From Candidatus Omnitrophota bacterium (GTDB taxonomy: Bacteria; Omnitrophota; Gorgyraeia; Zapsychrales; Fredricksoniimonadaceae): a stretch of DNA of 64,000 nucleotides. The position numbers and the translations under genes are program-made. The DNA lies in NCBI GenBank assembly GCA_903944345.1, contig CAJARJ010000019.1, positions 7,480-71,479 on the forward strand, in the 5' to 3' direction. Shown here one piece after another: positions 415-33,318 of this stretch. Below the pieces are notes generated by a model. It saw only the letters and a list, made by a program, of their open reading frames with translations. It was not told the origin of the DNA and ran no database searches. The stretch's first letter is position 1. Every line of letters begins with the position of its first letter.

Positions 415-567
415 AAAAGATCCACTTATGCCGTTGGAAGCCCGTGTATCGAACCTGATAAACAGGTGGAGTCAAGCTCGCGGTCCAGAGACACACAAAG
501 ACAACAGACTCCCGTAATATTGTATTGGTTCAATATTACAAACCTCCTGACGCGCACAGCAGACAAA

Positions 568-2589
568 CTACCTTCTTTTAATATGAAAAATCTCGGTTAA
601 ACGGGCCGCTATCTTTTCATTCAAGGTATTGACTTCCTCATCCGTCAAAGTCCGCTCTTTTGACTGATAGACTAATGAAAAGACATATCCCCTGAAGCCC
701 GCATCCATCTTATCACCGGAATACAATTCAACAAAGTTGATTTTTTGCAGCAGCCCCGCCCCCAGGCGCATACACTCACTAGTAATAGCGTCAAAACTAA
801 CATCCCGAACAGCTAGAGAAAGATCCCTGGTCATCGAAGGAAAATCATTAAGCTCAAGAAACTTTCTCAATGGCTCCGCCGTCATAAGAACTCCATCCAG
901 ATCAAGTTCCGCAAAATAAAGCCTGCTCTTCTTAATATCAAAACGGGCAAGAACCTCGTCTCGCACTCGACCAATACGGCCGGCATATTGCCCGTTAATA
1001 CTCAACTGCGCCGACTGCCCCGACTCCAGAGCATCATCCTGTTGCGCGGAAAATACCACACCGGAAACTCCCAGTTTTCCCAAAACCGACTGCAATGCAC
1101 CTTTCAAATCAAAAAAATCCAACGTTCTTTTTTCGCTGACCCGCCAATCATCTGAATACTTTCCACCCATCAACAAAGACAAGGACCACATCTCCCTCCC
1201 CGGAAGATAGCGTTTCCCCAACTCAAAAAGACGCAAATCTTTCTGGCCGCGATTAATATTTCCGGACGCGACGGACAACATTCCGACCAGCGCCGTTGGT
1301 TTCATCACTTCCTGTTCGGTCGACATCGGATTCTTCAAGGAAATCAGCGGACCGGTGTAATTTGCCTTCTCGAGTGCAGTTCTACCCGTAAGCGCATAAG
1401 TAATAATTTCATTAAAACCAAGCCCCACCAGCGTTTCATTAGTGCTACGTATAACGCCTTCTTCTTTCTTGTTCACTGAAATATTGGTCGACGGAACCTG
1501 AGGAATCGTCATCGGCAAATTATCATAACCAATGATCCGGGCAATCTCCTCAATCACATCCTGCTTGATTTGAATATCATTACGGAAATGCGGAGGAATA
1601 ACTGTCAGGTGCCGCTCTTCCTGCGGAACCATACAGCCGAGTCTTTTCAATATTCGGCGAGACCTGGTGAGATCCAGATCTGCCCCTATTAAATTCGAAA
1701 TGTCGTCAGAGCATACAACGATTTCCCGGCGAGAAATTTCCGGCTTTTGTGCCACGAAATCCCTGCGCGCATAAAGGGTTCCGCCTGCCTCGGATAAAAC
1801 AAGATCCGTCGCTCGGGCCGAAGCCGTCTCAATTGTTCTCCATGCCGTTCCCCGTTCAAATCGATAACAGGAATCACTGGTCAATGCCAGCTTGCGTGAA
1901 GCCCGGCGGATAACGCCAAGCTCGAAAGAGGCCGCTTCCAACAAAATATTTTTTGTCGCTGAAGTCACCGCCGTATCCATCCCCCCCATAATTCCGGCAA
2001 TGGCCACGGGCCTGCGCTCATCAGCAACCACCAAAATGCTTTCATCCAGTTTTCTTTCCACTCCATCCAAAGTAACTATTTTCTCTCCGGCTCTGGCCCG
2101 ACGCACAATGATCTTTTTTCCCTCGAGACGATCCAGATCAAAAGCATGTAGCGGCTGTCCATACTCGAAAAGTACAAAGTTGGTAACATCCACCACGTTG
2201 GAAAGTTGCTTCAGGCCCAGAGACTGCAAAAATTCTGAATGTTCTGCCGAGAAAGGCTTTACCTTCACTCCGGTGACAATAGTTCCTATATAGCGCCCAC
2301 AGTCTGTAGGATTCTCTATCGAAATATCTATCTCGCCTTTGTCGTCCTGATCCGAAACATCCGGAAGCACCAGGTCACGATCCACAATAGCCGAAATTTC
2401 CCGTGCCAGACCGAGCACGCTCAAGCAATCCGGACGGTTGGGAGTAACTTCTATCTCAAAAACAATATCCTCTCCAACCCGTTCAACGTGTTCTACCTCA
2501 AGCCCTGCCATGGTCATGCGCGTTGACAATTCTTCCGGCGTCAATCCGTGATCAATGTATTTTTTTAACCAGTTCAAACTTAATTTCAT
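568..2589 (-). CDS. pheT: Phenylalanine--tRNA ligase beta subunit
   Basis: 673-aa ORF starting MKLSLNWLKKYIDHGLTPEEL, a typical PheT N-terminus. Ends ...EKIAARLTEIFHIKRR. Directly downstream of pheS in the conserved thrS-infC-rpmI-rplT-pheST cluster. Confidence 0.93.
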   Translation of the reverse strand: MKLSLNWLKKYIDHGLTPEELSTRMTMAGLEVEHVERVGEDIVFEIEVTPNRPDCLSVLGLAREISAIVDRDLVLPDVSDQDDKGEIDISIENPTDCGRYIGTIVTGVKVKPFSAEHSEFLQSLGLKQLSNVVDVTNFVLFEYGQPLHAFDLDRLEGKKIIVRRARAGEKIVTLDGVERKLDESILVVADERRPVAIAGIMGGMDTAVTSATKNILLEAASFELGVIRRASRKLALTSDSCYRFERGTAWRTIETASARATDLVLSEAGGTLYARRDFVAQKPEISRREIVVCSDDISNLIGADLDLTRSRRILKRLGCMVPQEERHLTVIPPHFRNDIQIKQDVIEEIARIIGYDNLPMTIPQVPSTNISVNKKEEGVIRSTNETLVGLGFNEIITYALTGRTALEKANYTGPLISLKNPMSTEQEVMKPTALVGMLSVASGNINRGQKDLRLFELGKRYLPGREMWSLSLLMGGKYSDDWRVSEKRTLDFFDLKGALQSVLGKLGVSGVVFSAQQDDALESGQSAQLSINGQYAGRIGRVRDEVLARFDIKKSRLYFAELDLDGVLMTAEPLRKFLELNDFPSMTRDLSLAVRDVSFDAITSECMRLGAGLLQKINFVELYSGDKMDAGFRGYVFSLVYQSKERTLTDEEVNTLNEKIAARLTEIFHIKRR

Positions 2590-4847: not shown

Positions 4848-4892
4848 TGATTTCTTGTTATGCCTTAAAACGGCAGTTATTATCTTAAAAAA

Positions 4893-6632
4893 CTAAATTT
4901 TGTCAACGATATCTTTCTTGGCCAGTACTGAGAAATCTGTAAGTGACATTGCCCCAAGATCTGTTTCCGGACGTTTTCGAACAGAAACCATACCAGAAGA
5001 AACCTCTTTATCCCCGACAATAAGCATATATGGAATTCTCTGCATGCGCCCTTCACGAATACGTTTACCAAGAGATTCATTACGTGCGTCCACCTCCACA
5101 CGAAAACCTTCTGCTCGCAACGCATCTGCAACATTCCTGGAAAAAGCGTCATGATCACTTTTGATCGGGATAACAAGCGCCTGAACGGGCGACAACCACA
5201 ATGGAAAATTTCCGGAATAATGCTCAATTAATGTTCCAAAAAAACGCTCAACACTACCAAAAAGAGCCCGGTGAATCATTATCGGGCGTTCTTCTTTTCC
5301 ATCCGCATTTGTAAACTTGAGATTAAAACGCTCCGGCAAAGCAAAATCGCACTGAATAGTCGAACACTGCCATCTGCGATTGAGCGCATCTTTAAGTTTA
5401 AGATCAATCTTGGGGCCATAAAAGGCTCCGTCGCCTTCATTGATCTTGAAAACAATTTTCTTTTTTTCCAGAGCACCGCGTAAAGCATTGGTTGCCAGAT
5501 CCCAATCCTCCTGCTTTCCGATAAATTTTTCCGGACGGGTGCTGAGTTCAATTTCATAATCTTTGAAACCGAAAGCAGAAAGTAATTCAAACGCAAGATC
5601 GATCACCTTCTCAATTTCATCCTGCACCTGGTCCCGGCGACAAAAAATATGAGCATCATCCTGAGTAAATCCTCGCACCCTTAGCAAACCGTGTAAAACC
5701 CCGGCTTTCTCATAACGATAAACAGTTCCTAATTCAAAAAATTTTAACGGCAGCTCGCGATAGGAGTGCAACTTTTTTCCGTATATCAACATGTGCCCTG
5801 GACAATTCATGGGCTTAACAGCATATTCTTCGCCATCAAGTTTAAAATAGTACATATTGTCGCGGTAATGCTCTGCATGACCAGAAATTTCCCACAATTT
5901 TCCTCTCAGAAAATTTGGCGTCATGACAAGATCATATCCGCGTTTAAGATGCAGGTCTCTGGTAAAATCCTCTAGGATTTTACGCATTAATGCACCCTTG
6001 GGATGATAGAAAACCAATCCGGCGCCTGCTTCTTCCTGATAAATATGAAACAAATCAAGCTCTGTCCCCAGTTTACGATGATCTCGCTTGTCTGCTTCGA
6101 GAAGAGTCTGCAGGTGGGCGGCTAGCTCTTCTTTAGAAAAGAAACTTGTACCGTAAATTCGCTGCAACATGGGCTGTTTTTCGTCACCATGCCAATATGC
6201 CCCAGCCACGGAGAGTAGCTTAAAAGCCTTGATCTGGCCCGTCGATCTAACATGCGGACCTTTGCATAAATCAACAAATTCACGAGCGCCTGTCACAAAA
6301 AGCGAAATCTTTTCATCAGGTATCCCGGCAATTAACTCAACCTTATAGGTTTCATTTTTTTGACGAAAAAAATCCAGCGCCTCTTGTTTGCTGACGAGTT
6401 CCTGAACAATGGGAAGATTTCGATCTATGATCTTTTGCATGGACTGTTCAATTCGCACAAGATCCTGATCAGTAAAAGATTCTTTCTTCTCAAAATCATA
6501 ATAGAATCCGCTTTCTATAGCAGGACCTATGGTGACCTTGACATCAGGCCACAACTCTTTGACCGCCTGGGCCATGATGTGGGAACAACTGTGACGGAGC
6601 TTGTCAATCTCGCGGGAATAATCCATATGCAC
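4893..6632 (-). CDS. thrS: Threonine--tRNA ligase (begins in the N2/editing domain; no N-terminal TGS domain)
   Basis: 579 aa; editing-domain HSCSHIM motif, class II catalytic core (HRDHRKLGTELDLFH, PMNCPGHMLIY), C-terminal anticodon-binding domain. Confidence 0.92.
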   Translation of the reverse strand: MHMDYSREIDKLRHSCSHIMAQAVKELWPDVKVTIGPAIESGFYYDFEKKESFTDQDLVRIEQSMQKIIDRNLPIVQELVSKQEALDFFRQKNETYKVELIAGIPDEKISLFVTGAREFVDLCKGPHVRSTGQIKAFKLLSVAGAYWHGDEKQPMLQRIYGTSFFSKEELAAHLQTLLEADKRDHRKLGTELDLFHIYQEEAGAGLVFYHPKGALMRKILEDFTRDLHLKRGYDLVMTPNFLRGKLWEISGHAEHYRDNMYYFKLDGEEYAVKPMNCPGHMLIYGKKLHSYRELPLKFFELGTVYRYEKAGVLHGLLRVRGFTQDDAHIFCRRDQVQDEIEKVIDLAFELLSAFGFKDYEIELSTRPEKFIGKQEDWDLATNALRGALEKKKIVFKINEGDGAFYGPKIDLKLKDALNRRWQCSTIQCDFALPERFNLKFTNADGKEERPIMIHRALFGSVERFFGTLIEHYSGNFPLWLSPVQALVIPIKSDHDAFSRNVADALRAEGFRVEVDARNESLGKRIREGRMQRIPYMLIVGDKEVSSGMVSVRKRPETDLGAMSLTDFSVLAKKDIVDKI

Positions 6633-6657: not shown

Positions 6658-6734
6658 TGGTGGACCCAAGAGGACTCGAACCTCTGACCTCTTCCATGTC
6701 AAGGAAGCGCTCTAACCAACTGAGCTATGGGTCC
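6658..6734 (-). tRNA. tRNA-Val (anticodon GAC), CCA encoded
   Basis: Reverse complement GGACCCATAGCTCAGTTGGTTAGAGCGCTTCCTTGACATGGAAGAGGTCAGAGGTTCGAGTCCTCTTGGGTCCACCA. Fully paired 7-bp acceptor; anticodon stem CTTCC/GGAAG with loop TTGACAT; T-loop TTCGAGT. Confidence 0.93.
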
Positions 6735-6848
6735 CAAAAATACCTTGCGACCTGTAAAAGAAGTCTAAAAAAATGATTATACCTTTTCTGCTAGCTGCCG
6801 ACAAGAAAAATCTGGCACATATCCGGATTTCATAAAAATGTTCGAATA

Positions 6849-6931
6849 TGGGCAAGGAGGGAATCGAACCCTCAAGACCTTACGGTCAAAGGATTTTAAG
6901 TCCTTCGTGTATACCATTCCACCACTTGCCC
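6849..6931 (-). tRNA. tRNA-Leu (anticodon TAA), long variable arm, CCA not encoded
   Basis: Reverse complement GGGCAAGTGGTGGAATGGTATACACGAAGGACTTAAAATCCTTTGACCGTAAGGTCTTGAGGGTTCGATTCCCTCCTTGCCCA. Acceptor GGGCAAG/CTTGCCC; anticodon loop CTTAAAA; 15-nt variable arm. Confidence 0.9.
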
Positions 6932-6954
6932 GCAAGGCATTTATTCTATATATC

Positions 6955-7028
6955 TGGAGGCGTGGACCGGATTCGAACCGGTGGTAACGGTTTTGCAGAC
7001 CGTGGCCTTACCACTTGGCGACCACGCC
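6955..7028 (-). tRNA. tRNA-Cys (anticodon GCA), CCA encoded
   Basis: Reverse complement GGCGTGGTCGCCAAGTGGTAAGGCCACGGTCTGCAAAACCGTTACCACCGGTTCGAATCCGGTCCACGCCTCCA. Anticodon stem ACGGT/ACCGT with loop CTGCAAA; T-loop TTCGAAT. Confidence 0.93.
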
Positions 7029-7044
7029 AAAAATATTTTTTCCT

Positions 7045-7581
7045 TTACTCCAAAGATTTAATCGCTGCAAGAATTTCATTAATCTCAGCCAATGCGCCTG
7101 CACCTGTGTCGCCACAAGCAAGTCGACCTTCTTTGGGATTAATAAAATTCATTCCGATCTTTTTTAACTCCGATATATTTCGCTGCACGATTGCATTGCT
7201 ATACATGCCCGTGTTCATCGCCGGCGCAATTAAAAGAGGCGCGTTAATGGTAATAGCTACACAGGTCACGGGATCATCTGCCAGCCCCGCCGCAAGTTTA
7301 CCAATAATATTCGCTGTCGCCGGAGCAATAACCATGACCTGCGCCCATTGGGCAAGAGAAATATGCGCCATATCCCACTGCCCGTCTCTGGCAAACATAT
7401 CTCTACAAACAGGACGCTGTGTCAAGACTTCAAACGTCAAAGGTGTGACAAACTTTTCAGCACACGCCGTCATGACTACAGATACTTCGTAGTGATTGTC
7501 CTGCAAGCGTCGAACCAGATCACAAGCCTTATAAGCGGCAATGCTTCCGGATACGCCCAGAAGAAGATTCTTTTTTTTCAT
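7045..7581 (-). CDS. coaC: Phosphopantothenoylcysteine decarboxylase-type flavoprotein (CoaC domain only, not fused to CoaB)
   Basis: From ATG at 7581: MKKKNLLLGVSGSIAAYKACDLVRRLQDNHYEVSVVMTACAEKFVTPLTFEVL..., the flavoprotein (Dfp N-domain/EpiD-like) fold with the GVSGSIAAYK FMN-binding motif and PAMNTGMY motif. The ORF-track start at 7632 is probably too long. Confidence 0.8.
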   Translation of the reverse strand: MKKKNLLLGVSGSIAAYKACDLVRRLQDNHYEVSVVMTACAEKFVTPLTFEVLTQRPVCRDMFARDGQWDMAHISLAQWAQVMVIAPATANIIGKLAAGLADDPVTCVAITINAPLLIAPAMNTGMYSNAIVQRNISELKKIGMNFINPKEGRLACGDTGAGALAEINEILAAIKSLE

Positions 7582-7585
7582 AATA

Positions 7586-7810
7586 TCAGAGCTGGACAGG
7601 CGCAAACTTCTCGGCCACCCTGTCAAGAACAACCTTGCCCAATCTAACTTCCCTTAGCGCGGTCGTTACCAGCTTTTCATTCGCCGCAGCTTCTACCAGT
7701 TTGGGAGCTCCATTTGCCAGATCCAAAGCACGCTTCGAAACCAAAGACACCAAACTATAAGAGTTATAGTCGGCTTTGGGCAGTAATTCTTCCAGGGGCA
7801 TATAAACCAT
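7586..7810 (-). CDS. rpoZ: DNA-directed RNA polymerase subunit omega
   Basis: MVYMPLEELLPKADYNSYSLVSLVSKRALDLANGAPKLV..., the RpoZ signature; classic gmk-rpoZ adjacency. Start ambiguous (ATG at 7810 or 7801; the track's 7828 is TTG). Confidence 0.82.
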   Translation of the reverse strand: MVYMPLEELLPKADYNSYSLVSLVSKRALDLANGAPKLVEAAANEKLVTTALREVRLGKVVLDRVAEKFAPVQL

Positions 7811-10450: not shown

Positions 10451-11221
10451 TTATGATTGCAAAGAAAGACCGCAGCACTCTTTGGCTAAATCGGCATATT
10501 TTCTAGCCCCTACCGATTCTCTATCATATAAACAAATAGGTTTACCATGACTTGGGGCTTCACTTAATCGAATGTTTCTCGGAATAACTGTTTTATAAAC
10601 TTTATCTTTAAAATAGTTTTTGATTTCATTTATAACTTCTACTGTCAAGTTAGTTCTAAAATCAGCCATTGTCATTAAAACACCCTCAACTGTTAACGCT
10701 GGATTTAACCCCTCTCTAATTAATGCTATCGTATTAAGTAATTGTGATACTCCCTCCAATGCATAAAACTCGCATTGTATCGGAATAATTATTGAGTCGG
10801 CAGCTACTAAAGAATTTAAAGTCAGCAGCCCCAAAGATGGTGGAGAATCAATTAAAATATAATCAAAAAGACTTTTTACTTCATTTAAAGCTTTCTTAAG
10901 CTTTGTCTCTCTTGACAACACTCCAACCAGTTCAATTTCTGCACCAGTTAAGTGAATATTACATGGAATTAGATAGAGCCCCTTTACAACTGTGGGTAAA
11001 ATTGCTTGTTTGGCCGGAATTTTTCCTAAAATTACTTCATAGATAGATTCTTTTATTTCATTCTTATTAACGCCTACCCCACTCGTTGAATTCCCTTGCG
11101 GATCCATATCAATCAATAATACTTTTTTACCCAGCTCAGCCAACGCAGCCGATAGATTAACCGCCGTCGTTGTTTTTCCAGTTCCACCCTTTTGATTGCA
11201 TATCGCTATTATTTTCGGCAT
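10451..11221 (-). CDS. parA: Chromosome partitioning ATPase ParA/Soj
   Basis: 256 aa; deviant Walker A KGGTGKTTTAVNLSAALAELGKKVLLIDMDPQGN. Confidence 0.93.
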   Translation of the reverse strand: MPKIIAICNQKGGTGKTTTAVNLSAALAELGKKVLLIDMDPQGNSTSGVGVNKNEIKESIYEVILGKIPAKQAILPTVVKGLYLIPCNIHLTGAEIELVGVLSRETKLKKALNEVKSLFDYILIDSPPSLGLLTLNSLVAADSIIIPIQCEFYALEGVSQLLNTIALIREGLNPALTVEGVLMTMADFRTNLTVEVINEIKNYFKDKVYKTVIPRNIRLSEAPSHGKPICLYDRESVGARKYADLAKECCGLSLQS

Positions 11222-11973
11222 AATTTAAGTAGTCCTAAAAGTTATATGAGACAATTTAATACCGCAGCTTGTCTTTAATTATTACCTCTTCGAAATCATA
11301 GCCTCTACACTTGACTTTTGGGCTATCGAAGAAACTTATACAGGATTTTAAATTGTATAATTTTTATAACATCAAAATGAATTTTAAACAATCTATATTA
11401 TTTAAGAAAAATTAATGGTCTAGACTTTTTTCGCTGCTCAGATTGCAATTGGCGACTTTCGTTAGCACCAAATCTCTATTGAAAATGCTATAACATTAAG
11501 CCAACATAAATCCTATTTCATATATTCACTTTTTTGGCAGTACGCCCTTCATCAGGAGGATCTTGCCATTAGCAATCCGATCAATGTTCTACCTTCCTAA
11601 TGCGGCGGGCACATTGTTGACTTTTCTTTGACATTCGCAGCTAAATCAAATTATACATACTTTTATAACAAACTTATTTTATCGTGCAAGATGAGTGTTT
11701 TTGACGATTACGCATTTGCCCATATGCATGCTGATATCGGCCAGCAAACGTGTTTAAAGTCTGTTGAGTTTACCCGCCAAAAATTGCATTTCTGCTTGAT
11801 GGCGTCGATCTGCCGGTATATTTCGCGAGCTTGTCCTTATGAAGCTTACTAAAACATCAGTTGAATATATTCAATAAATAGTTCAATTAGAACAATATCG
11901 GCTAGACAGTAAACTTTAAAATCAGGATATAGAAATAACGACTTATTCTGCAGAAAATTTTCGAAAGGAAGGA

Positions 11974-12159
11974 TTACTTTAAGAAAACCTTGATCTTCGC
12001 TGGCTTAGCCCCACTCATTCCAAAAAGCCCTTTTTGCTCTTCACAAACCACTTTAATGGTTATCATTTCACGTGAAACATTCAGCTTATTCAAGGCAGCC
12101 TGAATGGCATCCTCAATGTTAGTTCCTTCAAACTCGAATGATGCCAAACTTTTTTTCAT
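11974..12159 (-). CDS. Jag/KhpB N-terminal domain protein (61 aa; KH and R3H domains absent)
   Basis: MKKSLASFEFEGTNIEDAIQAALNKLNVSREMITIKVVCEEQKGLFGMSGAKPAKIKVFLK resembles the Jag_N domain; lies immediately downstream of yidC, where jag normally sits. Confidence 0.6.
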   Translation of the reverse strand: MKKSLASFEFEGTNIEDAIQAALNKLNVSREMITIKVVCEEQKGLFGMSGAKPAKIKVFLK

Positions 12160-12164
12160 ATAAA

Positions 12165-13775
12165 CTACTTTGCTAACAATGAAGCCATACTACTTCTGGA
12201 AATATGCCACTGCGTAATTGCAGATAATAGATAAAAGACAACAAAATACACATTCAATCCGCTAGAAAAATTATAAAAAATGAAGCCTATCATAACAGGA
12301 AATACAGTTGCCATCATTTTTTGCTGTGCCGCCTGTTCAGGCGAAACATCCATATTCTGATTGGACATTTTCTGCTGAAACATCATGATAAAAACCATGA
12401 CGATTGGCAATAAATTAAAATAGCTACCCAAAAAAGGGATTTCAAATGGTAGTTTAAATAAATGATCCGGCTGAGACAGATCTTTCATCCAAAGAAAAGA
12501 CTCTCCCCTAAAGTAAAAAGACCGCCATAGTACTTGATATAGCCCAACAAAAATGGGCATTTGCAAAATCATCGGCAAACAACCACCTAAAGGATTAACT
12601 CCATGCTGTTTATAGAGAGCAAGAATTTCTTGGTTTACTTTCTCAGGATTATTCTTAAATTTTTCTTGAACCTGCTTGATTTTAGGTTGAATAGCCTGCA
12701 TTTTCCTCATAGATAGCAGGCTTTTCATTGTCAATGGAAACATTGCTCCATACACTACAAGACTTACCAAAATAATACAAAGCCCCCAAACAGGAATTAA
12801 ACTGTACGTTGCACCAAGCAACCAATAAATTAATTTCGATATGGCATCTAGCCAGGCCCAATCACTAAAAACTAAAATTTTTTGGAAATCTTTTCCTGCT
12901 TTATTAAGCAAATCAAGTTTCTGTGGGCCCAAATAGATATTGAAATCGTAAGTCTTAGTCTGATCTGGAAGAAAATCAAAATCGTTAAGGCTAAAACCTA
13001 AGGCCAAACGATCTGAATTCAATGCAGTTATATTAAAATTTCTCAGAGATGTTTGTGGCTGAAGAATCATGGCAAAGTATCTATCCCGGAGCCCAAGAAA
13101 GGAAACATCAACATCTTGTTTTGAAAAATCCCACTTTTCAGAAAAATTAGAAAGGTTATTCTTCCTATAAGATTTCTTGCTCTCAAGAATTAAATACTCA
13201 AGCAATGTTCGATCAGTTCCATTAATATTTTTGTCCAGTCTGGACGAATCAAAAATTGCCGCAGCTACTTTATAGGGAAACTGTCTTTTGGATCCTGCCG
13301 TATTTCTAATCTTCAAAGAACCAATAACGTTGAAATTATCAACTATTTTAAAAGTTTTGTAAACAACCCAATCATCCCAATCAATTTTATATTCAATAGA
13401 ATTCTGATTCTTGGATGATACTGTAAAAAACTTAGTATTAAATGAGTCTACAGCCAAAATATCATATAAAGGAAATGAATATGCGAATTTCGTCAACTCA
13501 GCATTACTGACTTTGGCTCCAAGAGTGGAGAATGTTAACTTAAGCCCGCTATGGGAAATAGCATCCTCGCTCCCCTGCAATTGATCGCTGTCAGAAATTA
13601 TTGGTTGTGAAAAAGCTTTAGCTTGCGTATTAATACTTGGAGCATCATCAAGTGAGCTTTGTTCCTGTGAAAATGGGGCGAAGGCAAAATCTTTTGGTTT
13701 TGGACCCCAAAAGGTTTGAAAAACAAAAACAACAATAAGTGATAGCGCAACAGCTAAAAATAGACGTTTTTCCAT
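12165..13775 (-). CDS. yidC: Membrane protein insertase YidC
   Basis: 536 aa; conserved C-terminal 60-kDa insertase core (MRKMQAIQPKIKQVQEKFKNNPEKVNQEILALYKQHGVNPLGGCLPMILQMPIFVGLY). Confidence 0.93.
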   Translation of the reverse strand: MEKRLFLAVALSLIVVFVFQTFWGPKPKDFAFAPFSQEQSSLDDAPSINTQAKAFSQPIISDSDQLQGSEDAISHSGLKLTFSTLGAKVSNAELTKFAYSFPLYDILAVDSFNTKFFTVSSKNQNSIEYKIDWDDWVVYKTFKIVDNFNVIGSLKIRNTAGSKRQFPYKVAAAIFDSSRLDKNINGTDRTLLEYLILESKKSYRKNNLSNFSEKWDFSKQDVDVSFLGLRDRYFAMILQPQTSLRNFNITALNSDRLALGFSLNDFDFLPDQTKTYDFNIYLGPQKLDLLNKAGKDFQKILVFSDWAWLDAISKLIYWLLGATYSLIPVWGLCIILVSLVVYGAMFPLTMKSLLSMRKMQAIQPKIKQVQEKFKNNPEKVNQEILALYKQHGVNPLGGCLPMILQMPIFVGLYQVLWRSFYFRGESFLWMKDLSQPDHLFKLPFEIPFLGSYFNLLPIVMVFIMMFQQKMSNQNMDVSPEQAAQQKMMATVFPVMIGFIFYNFSSGLNVYFVVFYLLSAITQWHISRSSMASLLAK

Positions 13776-13778
13776 AGA

Positions 13779-13988
13779 TTACCTTAAAGGATCAAAGCCC
13801 CCTGGATGAAATGGATGACACTTTATGATTCTTCGAAAAGTTAAAGAGAGGCCATTCCATGAGCCATACTGCTGTATAGCCTGAAGGGCATAGTTGGAGC
13901 AGGTTGGAGAAAACCGGCAATTTGCGGGTAATAACGGTCTTAACGCAAACTGATAAGCTCGTACAAGCAAAATCAATAAATGTTTCAT
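13779..13988 (-). CDS. yidD: Membrane protein insertion efficiency factor YidD
   Basis: 69 aa; LVRAYQFALRPLLPANCRFSPTCSNYALQAIQQYG...CHPFHPGGFDP matches the YidD family. Confidence 0.9.
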   Translation of the reverse strand: MKHLLILLVRAYQFALRPLLPANCRFSPTCSNYALQAIQQYGSWNGLSLTFRRIIKCHPFHPGGFDPLR

Positions 13989-14024
13989 GTGCCTACGCCA
14001 AGATACGCAAGTGTAGTCAAAGTA

Positions 14025-14162
14025 TCACTTTGATAAACGCTTACGACCTTTTGCCCGACGAGCACTTAACACTTTACGACCATCAGCCGTAGAGGAGCGC
14101 TTACGAAAACCGTGAACTCGTTTGCCTTTGAGATTTGTGGGAGTCTTAAGATTTAATTTCAT
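14025..14162 (-). CDS. rpmH: 50S ribosomal protein L34
   Basis: From the internal ATG: [45 protein letters not shown] (45 aa), the L34 signature. The longer 66-aa reading in the ORF track is an over-extension. Confidence 0.9.
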
Positions 14163-14470
14163 AATGTGGGAAATTATAACATATGATTTTCCTAAGTCAA
14201 GTATTGAAATCAAATGGCTATGCAAATCATTTGGGCGAACTAAAGAAGTATTGAATCTAATAAGAACAAATAAAGCTCAACAAAAATTAAAGCTCCATAA
14301 TAAACCAAAAAGTACCTTATATTTTACTTCATTAAAACAAACTATCCTATAAGAAGTGTACTAAGATTGTCTGATCGTTGCGTGAACTAAGATTTAAAAA
14401 AGAGGTATCCCAAACATAATGTTGTTGATAAATCAAAACTGATCCGCTCTTCCCGCTGGGTTAAAATAGG

Positions 14471-14498
14471 TTGCGCCTCAAGCTTTCTTTGATATAAT
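14471..14498 (+). promoter_or_regulatory. Candidate sigma70 promoter for dnaA
   Basis: -35 TTGCGC (14471-14476), 16-nt spacer, perfect -10 TATAAT (14493-14498), about 160 nt upstream of the dnaA ATG. Confidence 0.45.
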
Positions 14499-14564
14499 GC
14501 CTAAACTGAATCAAACTTCGAGCTAAGTCTATCAAGTTTTACGGTATAAAAAGTTAATAACAAC

Positions 14565-14573
14565 TGTGGATAA
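14565..14573 (-). promoter_or_regulatory. Consensus DnaA box (TTATCCACA on the minus strand)
   Basis: Plus strand reads TGTGGATAA at 14565-14573 in the rpmH-dnaA intergenic region; a 1-mismatch box TGTTGATAA lies at 14423-14431. Confidence 0.7.
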
Positions 14574-14659
14574 CCTGTTATTAAAATATTAATAAAGACC
14601 TAAGTCGATATGCTGAAATGATTTACATCTCTCTTCTTCATGCACAACCCTAAATCACT

Positions 14660-16009
14660 ATGACGACATTGCAACAATACTGGAACAACGCACAAACCTT
14701 TGTTCAAGACGAGATCGGGGTCTCTTCTTATCAAACATGGTTCTCTAATCTCAATGTAAATTGTCAAAACGATAAAATCATTCTCGAAACCCCGGATGAA
14801 TTCTTCAAAACATGGATTATTGATCATTACGCCGATATCATTCAGAATGCCCTAAAGAAAACCGGTCTTACCAATTGTGACTTCGAAATAGTTGTTTCCT
14901 CTGCATCAGCAAAACAACCTGAAGCGGCCATGCCAGCCGTTATTTCTGTCCAAACCGCTTCTGTTTCATATCCAAAAAATAGAACTTCAAACATACAATC
15001 GCGATTTTCTTTCGAAAATTTTGTTATGGGTTCATCAAATAAAATGGCATTTCGCGCAAGCCAGGCTGTTGCAGAAAATCCTTCAAAAGCTTACAATCCA
15101 TTGTTTATTTATGGGCAATCGGGCATGGGTAAAACTCATCTTATGCATGCGATCGCTAACCAAATTTCTATCAAGTATCCTGCTCAACATTGTCTTTATA
15201 TAACATCTGAGCAGTTTACCAATGAACTAATTGAAGCTATAAAAAACCGTTCCGCATCACAATTTAAACAAAAGTATCGAAATATCGATGTTCTCCTTAT
15301 TGATGATATTCAATTTATCGCCGGAAAAGAATCTACTCAGGAAGAATTTTTCCATACATTTAATGAATTACATAATTCCCACAAACAAATTGTTATGACC
15401 TGTGATCGACCTGCCAAAGAAGTTGCAAAACTGGAAGATCGCCTGGTCACTCGCTTTAGTTGGGGTTTAGCTGTCGATATCCAGCCTCCAGATTTTGAAA
15501 CACGTGTTGCCATCCTAAGAAAAAAAATAGAAGTTGAATCAATAAAAGTTCCAATACCAGATGATGTTATTTTTTTTATTGCGGAACAAATTAAAACAAA
15601 TATTCGAGAACTGGAAGGTGCTCTTATTAGAGTATTGGCAACTTCATTACTGGAAGAAAATCTGATTACTCTTGAATTAACAAGAAATACTCTAAAAGAC
15701 ATGGTCAAAGAAACAACAAAAACAATCAGTCTGGAAATGATTATTCTGACTGTAGCTGACTATTATAAAGTCAATATTTCAGACTTAAAATCAACTCGTC
15801 GAAATCAAACTATTGTTGTTCCCAGACAAATAGGAATGTATTTGTCCAGAAAGCTGACTAAACACTCTTTACCCGAAATAGGAAATGCTTTTGGGGGACG
15901 AGATCATACAACAGTTTTACATTCATGTAAAAAAATTGATGCCGATATTAATGAACAGGCCAGTTTACGTTATGCTATTGAAAAGTTATCAGATATTCTT
16001 AAACGTTAA
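14660..16009 (+). CDS. dnaA: Chromosomal replication initiator protein DnaA
   Basis: 449 aa; AAA+ Walker A GQSGMGKTHLMHAIAN; C-terminal DNA-binding domain (TTVLHSCKKI). Confidence 0.95.
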   Translation: MTTLQQYWNNAQTFVQDEIGVSSYQTWFSNLNVNCQNDKIILETPDEFFKTWIIDHYADIIQNALKKTGLTNCDFEIVVSSASAKQPEAAMPAVISVQTASVSYPKNRTSNIQSRFSFENFVMGSSNKMAFRASQAVAENPSKAYNPLFIYGQSGMGKTHLMHAIANQISIKYPAQHCLYITSEQFTNELIEAIKNRSASQFKQKYRNIDVLLIDDIQFIAGKESTQEEFFHTFNELHNSHKQIVMTCDRPAKEVAKLEDRLVTRFSWGLAVDIQPPDFETRVAILRKKIEVESIKVPIPDDVIFFIAEQIKTNIRELEGALIRVLATSLLEENLITLELTRNTLKDMVKETTKTISLEMIILTVADYYKVNISDLKSTRRNQTIVVPRQIGMYLSRKLTKHSLPEIGNAFGGRDHTTVLHSCKKIDADINEQASLRYAIEKLSDILKR

Positions 16010-22494: not shown

Positions 22495-22522
22495 TTGACG
22501 ATTAGAAAGCCTTAAATATAAT
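22495..22522 (+). promoter_or_regulatory. Candidate sigma70 promoter for tRNA-Glu
   Basis: -35 TTGACG (22495-22500), 16-nt spacer, -10 TATAAT (22517-22522), about 30 nt upstream of the tRNA 5' end. Confidence 0.5.
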
Positions 22523-22552: not shown

Positions 22553-22629
22553 GACCCCATCGTCTAGTCTGGTCAGGACACAAGCTTTTCAAGCTTGGAA
22601 CGCGGGTTCAAATCCCGCTGGGGTCGCCA
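22553..22629 (+). tRNA. tRNA-Glu (anticodon TTC), CCA encoded
   Basis: GACCCCATCGTCTAGTCTGGTCAGGACACAAGCTTTTCAAGCTTGGAACGCGGGTTCAAATCCCGCTGGGGTCGCCA. Acceptor GACCCCA/TGGGGTC; anticodon loop TTTTCAA; T-loop TTCAAAT. Confidence 0.92.
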
Positions 22630-24789: not shown

Positions 24790-25701
24790 ATGGATCTTTT
24801 CGAAAACAAAAAGCAGTTGATCATGATTGCCGCCGCTGTTGTGATCGGCATTGTGGCTTCTGTCATGGTTGCTGGTTTTGTTTCGACGCGCATTAACGAG
24901 GAAACACAAATTTTGGCAGATCGATATCAACAGGCACAGAAGCAGAGAGAGCAGCAATATAACGAGCAAATGGCGGGAATGAATCAGAAAATTGCCGCAA
25001 TGGATCAAAATTACAAAAAAGCCATTGAGGAGTCCAGTCGGGCGGCCGACAAGCGACTGGCAGATGCTGTCGCAGCTGCTAAAGCCGCAGCTGCAGCTGA
25101 ATCAGCCAGAAAGGCGACCGAAGATGCTCAAAAGAATCCGCCCAAAAAGCCAAAACCTTCTCTGGCATTACGTACTCCTGCCGGGAAAAGGGCGATCACA
25201 TTAAAGATAGAGTCTATTGGCGCGGTTGGGGGGTTAATTAATCCGGGAGATTACGTTGACATTATTGCGCACTTGAATCTTCCCGCTGAGCCCGTTGCTG
25301 ACAAACAAAAAAAAGTTGTTACGGCCATGATTTTTCAGAGGGTGCAGATATTGGCTGTGAATACAAATCTTGATCAGATGGGGGAGTACGATGCTCAGCA
25401 GAAAGATGCTGCGCTGAAAATAACCTTTGCGGTTGACCCTCAGGAAGCTGGCCTTTTATCATTTGCAGAAAAGAACGGAAAATTGGAAATGGCTCTACGA
25501 GGCCCCAATGAAAGCAAGAGTGTGATGCTATCTAGTGCGACCTGGTCGACACTTGCCGAGTATGTTCTGGAAAATAGTGGCGCGGATTTGAAGATTCCCG
25601 ATTCAGAGTGGGGGGAAGAGGCACCTGTGGCTGAAGTGGAAACTGTTGACGTTGTTGAAGCTAAACCGTACATTCCGGTCTATCGGGGTGGAAAGGAGTA
25701 G
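24790..25701 (+). CDS. cpaB: Flp pilus assembly protein CpaB/RcpC-like (SAF domain) with an Ala/Lys-rich insert
   Basis: 303 aa; N-terminal TM (IMIAAAVVIGIVASVMVAGFV); SAF-like RAITLKIESIGAVGGLINPGDYVDIIA and QRVQILAVNT motifs; immediately upstream of the secretin. Confidence 0.72.
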   Translation: MDLFENKKQLIMIAAAVVIGIVASVMVAGFVSTRINEETQILADRYQQAQKQREQQYNEQMAGMNQKIAAMDQNYKKAIEESSRAADKRLADAVAAAKAAAAAESARKATEDAQKNPPKKPKPSLALRTPAGKRAITLKIESIGAVGGLINPGDYVDIIAHLNLPAEPVADKQKKVVTAMIFQRVQILAVNTNLDQMGEYDAQQKDAALKITFAVDPQEAGLLSFAEKNGKLEMALRGPNESKSVMLSSATWSTLAEYVLENSGADLKIPDSEWGEEAPVAEVETVDVVEAKPYIPVYRGGKE

Positions 25702-25704
25702 GGA

Positions 25705-27378
25705 ATGTTGGCGTCAATAAATAGAAAATCGGTTGTTTTTGACCGCTCACTCAGGCTTGTTTTGATTCTTTGCCTTTTATCGTTTACTTCTGTCACGGTT
25801 CATGGGGCGGGAAATTTTGATCAGGTTCAGATTCTTAAAGGTGACATGGTCAAGATAGACACCAAAGCGCTAACTAAAGTGTCGATTACGGATCCTGAAA
25901 TTGCAGATATTAGTGGAGCCTCCGCAGAAGGCATCACTGTTATTGGAAAAGAAACAGGCCAGACTGTGTTATTTATCTGGGACGGCGATGTCAAGACAAC
26001 TACGATTGTTCAGGTAGTTCCTGAAAATACTGCATACCTTAAGAGTCGCGCCGAAAGCCTTTTGTTTAGTGCCAACATTCATGAGGTGATAGTTTCAGAA
26101 AGTCCTTATGAAGGTCGGATTGTTTTGACCGGAGAGTTGACGGCCGAAAAAAGAAACATTATGGAGAAGGCGCTTGAGCCATTATTTGGTAAGTATTTGA
26201 ATTTGGTAGGTGATGCGGTCAGTGAGGATATGATACAGATCGATATGCAGGTTACGGATTTATCGACAACTTTGACTAAAGAGCTGGGGGTTGATTGGTT
26301 TTCCGGTACGCAGTCAGGTGATGGAGCCACAGGGAAAGTAACTGGAACTATTGGTGATGGTCTAAATCCCATGGCGGTCGAGGTTCCTCCTGATCAAGCC
26401 GGAACATTTAATGATATGTTCAAGATAGGAAACTTCTATCGTTCAACTGATAGTGCGTTAATAGCCAAAATTAATGCCTTAATTATAGAAGGTCGGGCTC
26501 GCGTTTTGTCCAAGCCGAGGCTTGTTGTCATGAGCGGGAAGCAGGCAACGTTTCTTGTTGGTGGAGAAATCCCGATCAGAACGACAACAACTAATGCCAG
26601 TGGTGGGTCAACGCAGGAAAATGTCGAATACAAAGAGTATGGGGTGAGCTTGATGATGACCCCAACGATTCGTAACGACAAAGTCGACTTGTTGATGAAT
26701 GTTGAAATTAGTGATATTGATGCGGCCAATTCGAGCGGAGATGATGTAGCTTTTACGACTCGCACCGCCCAAACGCAGCTTTTTTTGGATGATCGACAGA
26801 CTATCGTTCTGGCCGGCCTGATACGCAAGCAGGATGGGGTTACCGTCCGAAAAGTTCCTTTGTTGGGAAGTATTCCAGTTCTGGGGATGCTTTTTCGTAG
26901 CAAAAAGACTCCTGCTAATGTCGGGGACAGTGAACTAGTTATCTCCCTGACACCGACGATTATTGCATCAGCCAATAAGAATAAAGGGGCGCGCGCCTTT
27001 CAGGCAAAAAAAGGTGGTTCTGCGAATTTTGAGCGGGATCTGTCTTCTTCATACGTTTCGGTGTCTCAAGCGTTGGCCCCGTATGCCAGACAGGTTCAGG
27101 AAAAGATATCTGCATTTATTGTTTTTCCTTATGAGGCGCGTAGAAATGGCTGGGAGGGTGTCGTAAAATTGGCTCTCATTATCAAACGCGACGGCTCCTT
27201 GAGGGATGCTTTTATTCAGGAATCTTCGGGATATGAAATTTTTGATTTGGATGCTCTTAATACAGCGCGGGGGCTTTCCCCATATTTTCCAATCCCGGAT
27301 GATATTCGCAGTGACGAAGTTTCGGTAACAATACCAATAGCCTATAGATTTGATTCTGTTAATCAAAAAGTTCAATAA
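25705..27378 (+). CDS. cpaC: Tad-type secretin (CpaC/RcpA) with a C-terminal TonB-C-like domain
   Basis: 557 aa; signal peptide; secretin C-domain (LVVMSGKQATFLVGGEIPIRTTTTNASGG...VPLLGSIPVLGMLFRSKKT...SELVISLTPTII); then an extra ~100 aa FIVFPYEARRNGWEGVVKLALIIKRDGSLRDAFIQESSGYEIFDLDALNTARGLSPYFPIP matching the TonB C-terminal fold consensus. Confidence 0.88.
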   Translation: MLASINRKSVVFDRSLRLVLILCLLSFTSVTVHGAGNFDQVQILKGDMVKIDTKALTKVSITDPEIADISGASAEGITVIGKETGQTVLFIWDGDVKTTTIVQVVPENTAYLKSRAESLLFSANIHEVIVSESPYEGRIVLTGELTAEKRNIMEKALEPLFGKYLNLVGDAVSEDMIQIDMQVTDLSTTLTKELGVDWFSGTQSGDGATGKVTGTIGDGLNPMAVEVPPDQAGTFNDMFKIGNFYRSTDSALIAKINALIIEGRARVLSKPRLVVMSGKQATFLVGGEIPIRTTTTNASGGSTQENVEYKEYGVSLMMTPTIRNDKVDLLMNVEISDIDAANSSGDDVAFTTRTAQTQLFLDDRQTIVLAGLIRKQDGVTVRKVPLLGSIPVLGMLFRSKKTPANVGDSELVISLTPTIIASANKNKGARAFQAKKGGSANFERDLSSSYVSVSQALAPYARQVQEKISAFIVFPYEARRNGWEGVVKLALIIKRDGSLRDAFIQESSGYEIFDLDALNTARGLSPYFPIPDDIRSDEVSVTIPIAYRFDSVNQKVQ

Positions 27379-27396
27379 ATAATTGTTTCAGAAATT

Positions 27397-29571: not shown

Positions 29572-29574
29572 ATA

Positions 29575-29916
29575 ATGACTGCATATAATATTTCTCGCCA
29601 GACTTTAATTGCAAAACAAGTGCGGTTCGCAGATAGCCCATGGGCGCGCATGAAGGGCTTATTGGGACGCGACTCCTTGAATTCTGATGAGGGATTACTT
29701 ATAACCTGTTGCAATTCAATTCACATGTTTTTTATGCGGTTTTCCATTGATGCTATTTTCTTAGACCGTAATAATAGTGTTGTTGGACTTGTTTGTGCAA
29801 TTCCGCCGTTTTCTTTAAGTCCTGTTTTCTGGAATGCTTCCAAGGTGCTGGAATTGTCAAGTGGCACCATAAAGTTATCAGGTACAGAACTTAACGACAA
29901 GATTGAAATTTCCTGA
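29575..29916 (+). CDS. DUF192 family protein
   Basis: 113 aa; conserved DUF192 core IHMFFMRFSIDAIFLD. Confidence 0.7.
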   Translation: MTAYNISRQTLIAKQVRFADSPWARMKGLLGRDSLNSDEGLLITCCNSIHMFFMRFSIDAIFLDRNNSVVGLVCAIPPFSLSPVFWNASKVLELSSGTIKLSGTELNDKIEIS

Positions 29917-30027
29917 GTATATACTTCCGCGAAAAAGATTACTTAAACCTTTCTCACATATCATAAAAGTGCTAAATTAAAACTGTCCACTCTGGACATT
30001 AATCTCGGTTATCAGGATTGGCAAGAT

Positions 30028-31833: not shown

Positions 31834-31898
31834 AGCACGTTCAGTGGGTTGACGGGAAAAGCTGATATGCTATACTTCAAATGTCTTTAAGAGATAAG

Positions 31899-31930
31899 AG
31901 ATCCTAAAAGCATTAAACAGGATCTTTTTC
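31899..31930 (+). terminator. Putative intrinsic terminator after the 601-aa gene
   Basis: AGATCCT-(13-nt loop)-AGGATCT followed by TTTTTCGCTCTTTT; a second small hairpin CCGCC-ttag-GGCGG at 31944-31957. Confidence 0.45.
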
Positions 31931-32264: not shown

Positions 32265-32296
32265 TTTGTTCTCATCCGGATTTTTAAGGAGGATGT

Positions 32297-33303: not shown

Positions 33304-33318
33304 TCAGGAGAGAAACGC

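What the first reader, a model, noticed from the sequence alone, without database searches (positions are those of the whole stretch)
13988..14025. rnpA is missing from the conserved rpmH-rnpA-yidD-yidC cluster
rpmH (14025-14162) is followed after only 36 nt by yidD (13779-13988), then yidC and a jag remnant. In most bacteria the RNase P protein gene rnpA sits between rpmH and yidD. No minus-strand ORF in or near this gap resembles RnpA (small, basic, RNR motif). RnpA may therefore be relocated, or replaced by a protein-only RNase P as in Aquificae. Either would be notable for RNase P evolution.
Basis: partly seen in the sequence, partly recalled or inferred. Interest (0 to 1): 0.55.

Follow-up and report, generated by a model that had tools for sequence, protein, structure and literature searches.

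The report
RNase P protein gene cut from rpmH operon
In this Omnitrophota bacterium and a whole well-supported clade of its relatives, the RNase P protein gene (rnpA) has been cleanly removed from its near-universal place between rpmH and yidD; the sequence I could reach does not show whether it moved elsewhere in the genome (ordinary) or was lost (remarkable).

Summary
On the minus strand, rpmH (14025-14162) is followed after 36 nt by yidD (13779-13988), then yidC and a 61-aa Jag_N protein. There is no rnpA, no remnant of it and no overlapping frame. Nothing in the 64-kb window matches RnpA, RNase P RNA or a PIN/HARP nuclease.

This is not a local accident. The organism is an Omnitrophota MAG. 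Sixteen distinct genomes have the same rpmH-yidD (or rpmH-yidC) junction, with gaps of -10 to 194 nt. They form one clade (200/200 bootstraps on YidC+DnaA+DnaN) that includes Zapsychrus (class Velamenicoccia). All other Omnitrophota lineages sampled keep rpmH-rnpA-yidD-yidC, as do 54 of 56 outgroup loci. This points to a single ancient excision.

RNase P activity is still needed: the tRNA genes are clustered or lie 23-35 nt downstream of promoter-like sites.

I could not reach the rest of any genome in the clade, so relocation and loss remain unresolved. No relocated Omnitrophota-type rnpA turned up in three large protein searches. Every Omnitrophota-type rnpA whose context I saw is canonical. 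Published HARP surveys list no Omnitrophota.

My estimates are: a relocated or divergent rnpA elsewhere about 0.6, true loss with an unknown replacement about 0.25-0.3, and HARP about 0.05.

The parts
14025..14162 (-). rpmH (ribosomal protein L34, 45 aa), first gene of the operon
   Evidence: PF00468 E=1.1e-16; sequence
14173..14200 (-). Promoter-like site for the rpmH operon: TTGACT, 16 nt, TG-n-TATAAT. It matches 11 of 12 consensus positions and has an extended -10. The -10 hexamer ends 10 nt before the rpmH ATG, so the leader would be very short.
   Evidence: Consensus scan. This is a prediction only; the total number of promoter-like sites in the region is no higher than in shuffled sequence.
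13989..14024 (-). 36-nt rpmH-yidD spacer, at the position where rnpA sits in most bacteria. It holds no ORF and no RnpA remnant.
   Evidence: The equivalent gaps in 15 related genomes are -10 to 194 nt.
13779..13988 (-). yidD (membrane protein insertion efficiency factor, 69 aa)
   Evidence: PF01809 E=4.3e-29
12165..13775 (-). yidC (membrane insertase, 536 aa); starts 3 nt after the yidD stop
   Evidence: PF02096 E=5.6e-55 and PF14849 E=2.9e-14; homologues named as Omnitrophica/Omnitrophota YidC
11974..12159 (-). Jag_N-only protein (61 aa). This is a conserved short form in Omnitrophota, not a pseudogene.
   Evidence: PF14804 E=2.6e-18; proteins of 61-100 aa at the same position in relatives
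14660..16009 (+). dnaA, divergent from rpmH. Perfect DnaA boxes lie at 14565 and 16028, which marks this as the origin region.
   Evidence: Pfam hits; DnaA-box count
6658..7028 (-). tRNA-Cys / tRNA-Leu / tRNA-Val cluster, with spacers of 23 and 114 nt. These are substrates that need 5' processing. A promoter-like site at 6804-6776 lies 35-40 nt upstream of tRNA-Val.
   Evidence: the same cluster is conserved in the related loci
22553..22629 (+). tRNA-Glu with encoded CCA. A promoter-like site (TTGACG, 16 nt, TATAAT) at 22495-22522 predicts a 5' leader of about 23 nt.

Best explanation
In the common ancestor of a large Omnitrophota clade, rnpA was deleted cleanly from the ancestral rpmH-rnpA-yidD-yidC-jagN operon. 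The clade includes this organism and Zapsychrus, class Velamenicoccia (GTDB c__Koll11; o__UBA10015). The deletion left rpmH abutting yidD. The remaining four genes are tightly spaced (36, 3 and 5 nt) behind a strong promoter-like site just upstream of rpmH and are most likely one transcript.

The cell still needs RNase P. Its tRNA genes are clustered or sit tens of nucleotides downstream of promoter-like sites, and three of four encode CCA, which suits a classical type-A ribonucleoprotein enzyme. The most likely situation is therefore that RNase P is still the ordinary RNA-plus-protein enzyme, with its protein subunit encoded by an rnpA copy somewhere outside the 74 kb I could see. That copy may be divergent.

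Shown: the absence, its clade-wide distribution, its single origin and the need for leader removal. Inferred: that an rnpA gene exists elsewhere.
For: Anatomy of the locus.

Clade-wide distribution. Sixteen distinct genomes (window, L005-L008, L010-L013, L015, L018, L020, L021, L023, L024, L071) have rpmH followed directly by yidD or yidC, with gaps of -10 to 194 nt. Omnitrophota lineages outside this clade keep rnpA in place: L014, L017, L019, L032, L048, L052, L088, L090, L093, L095, L097-L099.

Single origin. The rnpA-less genomes are monophyletic in 198/200 and 200/200 bootstraps of a YidC+DnaA+DnaN neighbour-joining tree.

Need for RNase P.

Relocation does occur in bacteria at about the frequency needed to explain loci like this. 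1 of 63 RnpA loci from metagenomes is away from rpmH/yidD/yidC (L148). 2 of 56 informative outgroup rpmH-yidC loci lack rnpA (L082, L083).

HARP has not been reported in Omnitrophota.
Against: No relocated Omnitrophota rnpA was found anywhere.

Two profile searches of the 5.8-billion-protein collection and one exhaustive HMMER scan of 1.84 billion representatives returned many Omnitrophota-type RnpA proteins. None lies on the large contigs of the rnpA-less clade (311,881; 2,008,960; 872,346; 473,314; 343,315 nt). Every Omnitrophota-type rnpA whose context I could see is in the canonical place.

These negatives are weak. The first two searches depend on a word index, only the best 120-150 hits are listed, and a third RnpA type would score below the listed cut-off.

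Omnitrophota are already known to lack or disguise other 'universal' markers (TIGR03594, PF02978, PF13603; Seymour et al. 2023). The operon is also eroding further in some members: yidD is gone from it in L007 and L011, and Jag is reduced to its N domain.
Confidence: 0.58

Rival explanations
1. True loss. The clade has no RnpA homologue at all. RNase P RNA would then work with a non-homologous protein partner or none, or an undescribed protein enzyme would remove tRNA leaders.
For: The excision is clean and ancient, and it is stable across a deep clade. No Omnitrophota-type rnpA was found outside the canonical site in any search. No rnpA lies in the 64-kb window or in the 10 kb beyond its left end. 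The phylum is known to miss other near-universal markers. The two short RnpA forms, 88-90 aa in L032 and L052, hint at relaxed constraint on the protein within the phylum.
Against: RnpA is essential in every bacterium tested, to my knowledge. The only documented free-living exceptions carry HARP, and no HARP is reported for Omnitrophota. Only about 4-7% of one genome was inspected. The searches could easily miss a divergent copy. Relocation occurs elsewhere at about 2%.
Confidence: 0.27
2. Replacement by a HARP-type protein-only RNase P (a PIN_5-like protein of about 23 kDa), as in Aquificaceae, with loss of both rnpA and rnpB.
For: This is the only known precedent for a free-living bacterium without rnpA. 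HARP occurs sporadically in the related PVC phyla Verrucomicrobia and Planctomycetes.
Against: No window ORF scanned has a PIN/HARP hit. A survey of more than a million genomes found 178 bacterial HARP carriers in a few orders from extreme habitats. Omnitrophota appear neither in its text nor in Table S1. Three of four tRNA genes here encode CCA, and a HARP was reported to cleave CCA-bearing precursors about 10-fold more slowly.
Confidence: 0.05
3. Artefact: a mis-assembly or a local deletion in one MAG, or an rnpA hidden by overlap with rpmH as in Thermus.
For: None found. Thermus-like rnpA ORFs that enclose rpmH do exist in other metagenomic loci (L125, L154-L157).
Against: Independent assemblies from other samples have the identical junction. 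Fifteen further genomes share the state. No alternative frame across rpmH or the spacer matches the RnpA profile.
Confidence: 0.01
4. RNase P is dispensable because tRNAs are transcribed without leaders, as in Nanoarchaeum equitans.
For: Tiny symbionts without rnpB, rnpA or rpmH are discussed in the P finder paper. Omnitrophota are ultra-small and often host-dependent (abstract).
Against: tRNA-Cys, -Leu and -Val form a cluster with spacers of 23 and 114 nt, conserved across the clade. The best promoter-like sites lie 23-40 nt upstream of tRNA-Glu and tRNA-Val, not at the +1 distance.
Confidence: 0.02

Closest known systems
Canonical bacterial rpmH-rnpA-yidD-yidC-jag cluster next to dnaA (E. 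coli, B. subtilis and most bacteria)
   Same: Same neighbourhood and order: dnaA is divergent from rpmH, followed by yidD, yidC and jag, then parA and parB. It is kept intact in sister Omnitrophota lineages and in 54 of 56 outgroup loci.
   Different: rnpA is missing, Jag is reduced to its N-terminal domain, and mnmE, mnmG and rsmG are absent from the locus.
Aquificaceae (Aquifex aeolicus): no rnpA and no rnpB; RNase P is the protein-only enzyme HARP
   Same: rnpA is absent from the expected place in a free-living bacterial lineage.
   Different: No HARP or PIN-domain gene was seen here, and none is reported for Omnitrophota. The loss of rnpB is untested. The habitats are not extreme.
Thermus thermophilus: rnpA overlaps rpmH in another frame (known from my own background knowledge)
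   Same: An unusual rpmH/rnpA arrangement that can make rnpA look absent.
   Different: No overlapping RnpA-like frame exists here. Overlap-type ORFs were seen only in other loci (L125, L154-L157; long forms).
Bacteria with rnpA relocated away from rpmH/yidD/yidC (for example metagenomic contig WBZP01000686.1, locus L148)
   Same: This would be the same outcome if the clade's rnpA sits elsewhere. The rpmH-yidD junctions without rnpA in L082 (a Legionellales MAG) and L083 (Fidelibacterota) look the same.
   Different: In L148 the relocated gene itself is seen, flanked by an archease-like ORF and trpC/D/G-like ORFs (identified by reading the translations, not by a domain scan). For the Omnitrophota clade no relocated copy has been seen.
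Reduced endosymbionts that lack rnpB together with rpmH, rnpA and yidD (P finder paper, PMC7191817)
   Same: Absence of rnpA in small-celled, host-associated bacteria.
   Different: In those the whole cluster is gone in genomes of a few hundred kb. Here rpmH, yidD and yidC are intact and the genomes are about 1-3 Mb.

Membership tests
Conserved rpmH-rnpA-yidD-yidC-jag gene cluster | rpmH present, adjacent to dnaA | tested here: met
   PF00468 E=1.1e-16 at 14025-14162; dnaA is divergent at 14660
Conserved rpmH-rnpA-yidD-yidC-jag gene cluster | rnpA directly downstream of rpmH | tested here: not met
   The spacer is 36 nt; the RnpA profile finds nothing in six frames
Conserved rpmH-rnpA-yidD-yidC-jag gene cluster | yidD and yidC follow | tested here: met
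   PF01809 E=4.3e-29; PF02096 E=5.6e-55
Conserved rpmH-rnpA-yidD-yidC-jag gene cluster | Full-length Jag/KhpB (Jag_N + KH + R3H) | tested here: not met
   Only Jag_N is present, 61 aa. The same holds across Omnitrophota.
Bacterial ribonucleoprotein RNase P (RnpA + rnpB RNA) | RnpA protein with the RNR motif (PF00825/TIGR00188) encoded in the genome | not testable with these tools
   Absent from the 64-kb window and from the called genes 10 kb beyond its left end. The rest of the genome could not be read. Protein-database searches found no copy assignable to the clade.
Bacterial ribonucleoprotein RNase P (RnpA + rnpB RNA) | RNase P RNA (Rfam RF00010/RF00011) encoded in the genome | not testable with these tools
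   No match in the window at gathering threshold, in 11000-14800 at E<=10, or in 18 loci of the clade. The rest of the genome is unreachable.
Bacterial ribonucleoprotein RNase P (RnpA + rnpB RNA) | Substrates with 5' leaders and, for type A, often an encoded 3'-CCA | tested here: met
   There is a tRNA cluster, predicted leaders of 23-40 nt, and CCA encoded in 3 of 4 tRNA genes. The promoters are predictions only.
HARP protein-only RNase P (Aquifex type) | PIN_5-like protein of about 190-200 aa encoded in the genome | tested here: inconclusive
   No PIN-type hit in any window ORF scanned. The genome outside the window was not tested. Literature surveys list no Omnitrophota.
HARP protein-only RNase P (Aquifex type) | Absence of both rnpA and rnpB from the whole genome (the Aquificaceae condition) | not testable with these tools
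Thermus-type overlapping rpmH/rnpA | RnpA reading frame that encloses rpmH in another frame | tested here: not met
   No RnpA-like fragment overlaps 14025-14225 in any frame
Leaderless tRNA transcription (Nanoarchaeum type, RNase P-free) | Every tRNA gene has its own promoter placed so that transcription starts at tRNA +1 | tested here: not met
   The Cys-Leu pair is only 23 nt apart. The best promoter-like sites are 23-40 nt upstream of the tRNA 5' ends.

The most novel reading that the evidence does not exclude
A deep, species-rich clade of Omnitrophota (including Zapsychrales/Velamenicoccia and this organism) has no RnpA homologue and no HARP. If so, either its RNase P RNA works with a new protein partner or none, or tRNA 5' ends are made by an undescribed enzyme. 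This would be a second independent departure from the RnpA-dependent RNase P among free-living bacteria, and the first outside thermophiles.
Probability: 0.25. Interest if true: 0.85.

Novelty: new variant of a known kind. Interest (0 to 1): 0.45.

Why it matters
rpmH-rnpA is among the most conserved gene pairs in bacteria, and RnpA is regarded as universal apart from the Aquificaceae (HARP) and a few tiny endosymbionts.

I show that one event removed rnpA from this operon in the ancestor of a large part of the phylum Omnitrophota. These are ultra-small, often host-dependent or predatory bacteria that are already known to lack other 'universal' markers. I found no paper that mentions this.

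If the gene merely moved, the result is a useful synapomorphy and an annotation caveat. If it is gone, the clade offers a natural experiment on how a bacterial RNase P ribozyme copes without its protein, or on a new tRNA 5'-processing enzyme. The question can be settled in minutes by scanning the complete Omnitrophota genomes that are now public.

Tried and rejected
1. Hidden or overlapping rnpA. A six-frame RnpA profile search of the whole window gave a best E of 0.29. Rejected.

2. rnpA elsewhere in the window. Pfam scans of all plausible small and medium ORFs found pilins, DciA, DUF192 and similar, but no PF00825 and no PIN domain.

3. RNase P RNA in the odd 752-nt gene-free spacer at 11222-11973. 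There is no Rfam hit at E<=10. The spacer is poorly conserved against the 86%-identical relative L005, and its fold is no better than shuffled sequence (z=-1.2). Rejected.

4. rnpB near oriC in relatives. None was found in 18 loci.

5. Finding the species in GTDB genomes with its own YidC gave no hit. An alignment query worked.

6. Fishing for a relocated rnpA of the clade. I ran Omnitrophota RnpA profiles against 5.8 billion proteins, using contig lengths as a fingerprint for the clade's big contigs. I also ran an exhaustive HMMER scan of 1.84 billion representatives, a cluster look-up (no organism names returned) and seven context look-ups. Every context was canonical and nothing could be assigned to the rnpA-less clade. 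This is uninformative rather than negative.

7. A metagenome scan with the RnpA alignment A6 failed because no stretch was conserved enough. The scan with A5 gave 63 loci, of which 62 are canonical and one is relocated, but that one is from a high-GC non-Omnitrophota organism.

8. A YidC-only tree gave only about 45% support for the clade, so I did not rely on it. Concatenation with DnaA and DnaN gave 99-100%.

9. Per-genome KO, Pfam and TIGRFAM tables of Seymour et al. 2023 are truncated in the held copy. Only genomes 58, 104 and 194 are visible, and all three carry rnpA. Genome 194 is class Omnitrophia. Genome 104 I take to be the Gorgyraia organism SKK-01, from its 2.5-um cell size. I did not place genome 58.

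10. I could not obtain a HARP sequence to search with, because the paper supplements are not held.

Full report
**1. What is at the site**

The minus strand carries four genes in a row:
- rpmH, 14025-14162, 45 aa, PF00468 E=1.1e-16
- yidD, 13779-13988, 69 aa, PF01809 E=4.3e-29
- yidC, 12165-13775, 536 aa, PF02096 and PF14849
- a 61-aa protein that is only a Jag_N domain, 11974-12159, PF14804 E=2.6e-18

Between the rpmH stop (TGA, 14027-14025) and the yidD ATG lie 36 nt and no ORF. yidC starts 3 nt after yidD, and jagN starts 5 nt after yidC.

A strong promoter-like site sits at 14200-14173: TTGACT, 16 nt, TG-n-TATAAT, matching 11 of 12 positions. Its -10 hexamer ends 10 nt before the rpmH ATG. 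I infer that the four genes form one operon.

dnaA (14660-16009), dnaN, a DciA-like gene, gyrB and gyrA run the other way, with perfect DnaA boxes at 14565 and 16028. This is the classical origin-proximal neighbourhood, minus rnpA.

**2. Is rnpA hidden?**

No.
- I iterated a profile from three RnpA sequences recalled from memory over all ORFs of 88 sources. It picked up 60 RnpA genes in other loci and none in the window.
- The resulting 62-sequence profile was run with all HMMER filters off against every stop-to-stop fragment of at least 20 aa in six frames of the window. The best hit had E=0.29.
- This also excludes a Thermus-type rnpA that overlaps rpmH.
- Pfam scans of all plausible ORFs found no Ribonuclease_P and no PIN-type nuclease.
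- Rfam found four tRNAs and a 6S RNA, but no RNase P RNA.
- Four further assemblies from other samples (L001-L004) have the same junction, so it is not an assembly error.

**3. Who is it?**

YidC homologues down to 34% identity are named Candidatus Omnitrophica or Omnitrophota by their sources.

**4. Comparative picture**

I fetched 80 loci from GTDB species genomes with a YidC alignment and further loci through exact-protein look-ups. I then annotated rpmH, rnpA, yidD, yidC and jagN in all of them.

*Genomes without rnpA at the junction.* Sixteen distinct genomes have rpmH followed directly by yidD or yidC: the window, L005, L006, L007, L008, L010-L013, L015, L018, L020, L021, L023, L024 and L071.
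- The rpmH-yidD gaps are -10 to 81 nt.
- L007 and L011 have lost yidD from the locus as well, with rpmH-yidC gaps of 61 and 194 nt.

*Genomes that keep rnpA.*
- 54 of 56 informative outgroup loci keep rpmH-rnpA-yidD-yidC.
- So do all other Omnitrophota-type loci, which have the same gyrB-dciA-dnaN-dnaA | rpmH... synteny: L014, L017, L019, L032, L048, L052, L088/L090, L093/L095 and L097-L099.

*Phylogeny.*
- A YidC-only tree groups the rnpA-less genomes, but with only about 45% bootstrap support.
- Concatenating YidC, DnaA and DnaN (about 1,310 columns) makes them monophyletic in 198/200 and 200/200 replicates. The rnpA-retaining lineages fall outside.
- These are quick neighbour-joining trees, not a full phylogenomic analysis. 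Even so, the pattern is one ancient excision.

*Taxonomy.* Mapping names onto Table S1 of Seymour et al. 2023 (PMC10066038) gives:
- L011 is Zapsychrus unditaenarius, class Velamenicoccia. It is rnpA-less.
- L017 (Makaraimicrobium) and L048 (Taenaricola) are class Gorgyraia, and L032 is class 2-02-FULL-51-18. All three retain rnpA.
- In the part of their annotation tables that is held, genomes 58, 104 and 194 carry K03536, PF00825 or TIGR00188. Genome 194 is class Omnitrophia. Genome 104 is probably the Gorgyraia organism SKK-01, judging by its 2.5-um cell size (my inference).

**5. Does the organism still need RNase P?**

Almost certainly.
- tRNA-Cys, -Leu and -Val form a cluster with spacers of 23 and 114 nt. 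The cluster is conserved across the clade.
- tRNA-Glu lies about 23 nt downstream of the predicted start of a TTGACG-16-TATAAT site.
- tRNA-Val lies about 35-40 nt downstream of a TTGTCG-17-TATAAT site.
- Three of the four genes encode CCA.

Leaders must therefore be removed. A Nanoarchaeum-style leaderless solution does not fit.

**6. Where is the protein?**

This I could not determine. The tools gave access to the 64-kb window, the called genes 10 kb beyond its left end (MgsA, RNase Y, YmdB, aminoacyl-tRNA synthetases; no PF00825), and about 13 kb around oriC in each relative.

I tried to fish for a relocated copy in four ways:
- Profiles of the nearest rnpA-retaining lineages against 5.8 billion proteins gave 267 and 356 hits. 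None of the listed hits lies on the clade's long contigs.
- An exhaustive HMMER scan of 1.84 billion representatives gave 34,187 hits. The top 150 are mostly of the two Omnitrophota RnpA types already known.
- Seven context look-ups were all canonical.
- A metagenome scan gave 63 RnpA loci. Of these, 62 are canonical. One, L148, is a genuinely relocated rnpA, but in a high-GC non-Omnitrophota contig.

So relocation exists in bacteria at roughly 2%. That is similar to the 2 of 56 outgroup loci that lack rnpA at the junction (L082, L083). No relocated Omnitrophota copy was seen.

These negatives are weak. Two searches rely on a word index, only the best 120-150 hits are listed, and a third RnpA type absent from the profile would score below the listed cut-off (79 bits).

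**7. Literature**

- No held paper combines Omnitrophica or Omnitrophota with RNase P.
- Neither the 2023 phylum study nor a 2026 preprint on 176 complete genomes mentions RNase P or rnpA.
- HARP is reported in Aquificae and sporadically in Proteobacteria, Thermodesulfobacteria, Nitrospirae, Verrucomicrobia and Planctomycetes (PMC10941002).
- A 2025 survey of over a million genomes found 178 bacterial carriers, none of them Omnitrophota in its text or Table S1 (PMC12153264).
- Seymour et al. note that Omnitrophota systematically lack three 'universal' CheckM markers (TIGR03594, PF13603, PF02978). Searching their CheckM output for PF00825 and TIGR00188 gave no occurrences, so these appear not to be in the marker set used there. 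A missing rnpA could therefore have gone unnoticed.

**8. Verdict**

It is a clade-defining, single, clean excision of rnpA from one of the most conserved operons in bacteria.

| Explanation | My estimate |
|---|---|
| rnpA copy elsewhere in the genome, possibly divergent | about 0.6 |
| True loss with an unknown replacement or a protein-independent ribozyme | about 0.25-0.3 |
| HARP | about 0.05 |
| Artefact or leaderless tRNAs | under 0.03 |

The decisive test is a whole-genome scan of complete genomes of the clade for PF00825/TIGR00188, RF00010 and HARP. It is trivial to run, but it was not possible with the tools available here.

Noticed in passing
window 42432-64000 (+): One stop-free reading frame of at least 7,189 codons runs off the right end of the window. 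The ORF listing hides it for that reason, which makes the region look gene-free. GC is 0.50-0.53, against 0.36-0.47 around oriC. The only Pfam hit is Peptidase_C39 at residues 205-286. It fits the giant proteins described for Omnitrophota.
   Followed up: partly
window 24790-41957 (+): A Tad/Flp-type pilus cluster. It holds RcpC/CpaB, a secretin fused to a TonB_C domain, a ParA-like domain fused to a T2SSE ATPase, two T2SSF proteins and a TadE-like protein. It also has at least eight small pilin-like genes with archaeal-type 'Class III signal peptide' N-termini (32297-35390, 39794-40168). Three large proteins there have no Pfam match (30028-31833, 35403-36659, 36945-39773).
   Followed up: partly
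window 11974-12159 (-), and the same position in L005-L024, L088, L090: Jag/KhpB is reduced to its N-terminal domain alone (61-100 aa) in nearly all Omnitrophota loci. The KH and R3H RNA-binding domains are gone. Outgroups have Jag proteins of 200-350 aa.
   Followed up: partly
window 11222-11973: A 752-nt gene-free, AT-rich spacer lies between jagN and parA. A similar spacer is present in the 86%-identical relative L005, but it is only about 110-155 nt in L006 and L007. It is poorly conserved, has no Rfam hit, folds no better than shuffled sequence and has no DnaA boxes. Its origin and role are unknown.
   Followed up: partly
L007 5927-6001; L011 5806-6001: Within the rnpA-less clade, two genomes (one of them Zapsychrus unditaenarius) have also lost yidD from the operon, so rpmH is followed directly by yidC. 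The operon seems to be eroding stepwise.
   Followed up: no
L082 (Legionellales MAG MED1261) 4903-5284; L083 (Fidelibacterota MAG) 4879-5320: Two unrelated outgroup genomes also have rpmH followed within 7 nt by yidD, without rnpA. Their relatives (L042, L072) keep it.
   Followed up: no
L148 4893-5285 (contig WBZP01000686.1): A clear rnpA (130 aa, with an NRNRIKR motif) lies far from any rpmH, yidD or yidC in a high-GC contig, between an archease-like ORF and trpC/trpD/trpG-like ORFs (identified by eye from the translations). This is an example of a relocated rnpA.
   Followed up: partly
L125, L154-L157; proteins P0387, P0389, P0404, P0406, P0408, P0409, P0428-P0430, P0457: In several metagenomic loci the rnpA reading frame starts upstream of rpmH and encloses it in another frame, as described for Thermus. 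Matching RnpA database entries of 166-195 aa carry lysine-rich N-terminal extensions that look like out-of-frame rpmH. These could be real overlaps or over-extended gene calls.
   Followed up: no
window 6848-7492 (+) versus 7045-7632 (-): The public gene call on the 311-kb contig is a 214-aa ORF with no Pfam hit, and it overlaps the tRNA genes. The opposite strand encodes a 195-aa Flavoprotein (PF02441, E=1.4e-33), which is the gene called in other assemblies and in relatives. The public call is probably a strand error.
   Followed up: partly
window 415-568 (-): A 6S RNA (RF00013, 58 bits) lies immediately downstream of pheT. The same match appears in L092.
   Followed up: no
L095/L096 826-4701: GyrB of an rnpA-retaining Omnitrophota relative is 1,291 aa long and carries an intein (PF14890).
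   Followed up: no
L032 4935-5207; L052 4803-5069 (P0125): The RnpA of the 2-02-FULL-51-18 lineage is only 88-90 aa by the available start codons. It lacks the N-terminal 25-30 residues present in other RnpA proteins.
   Followed up: no
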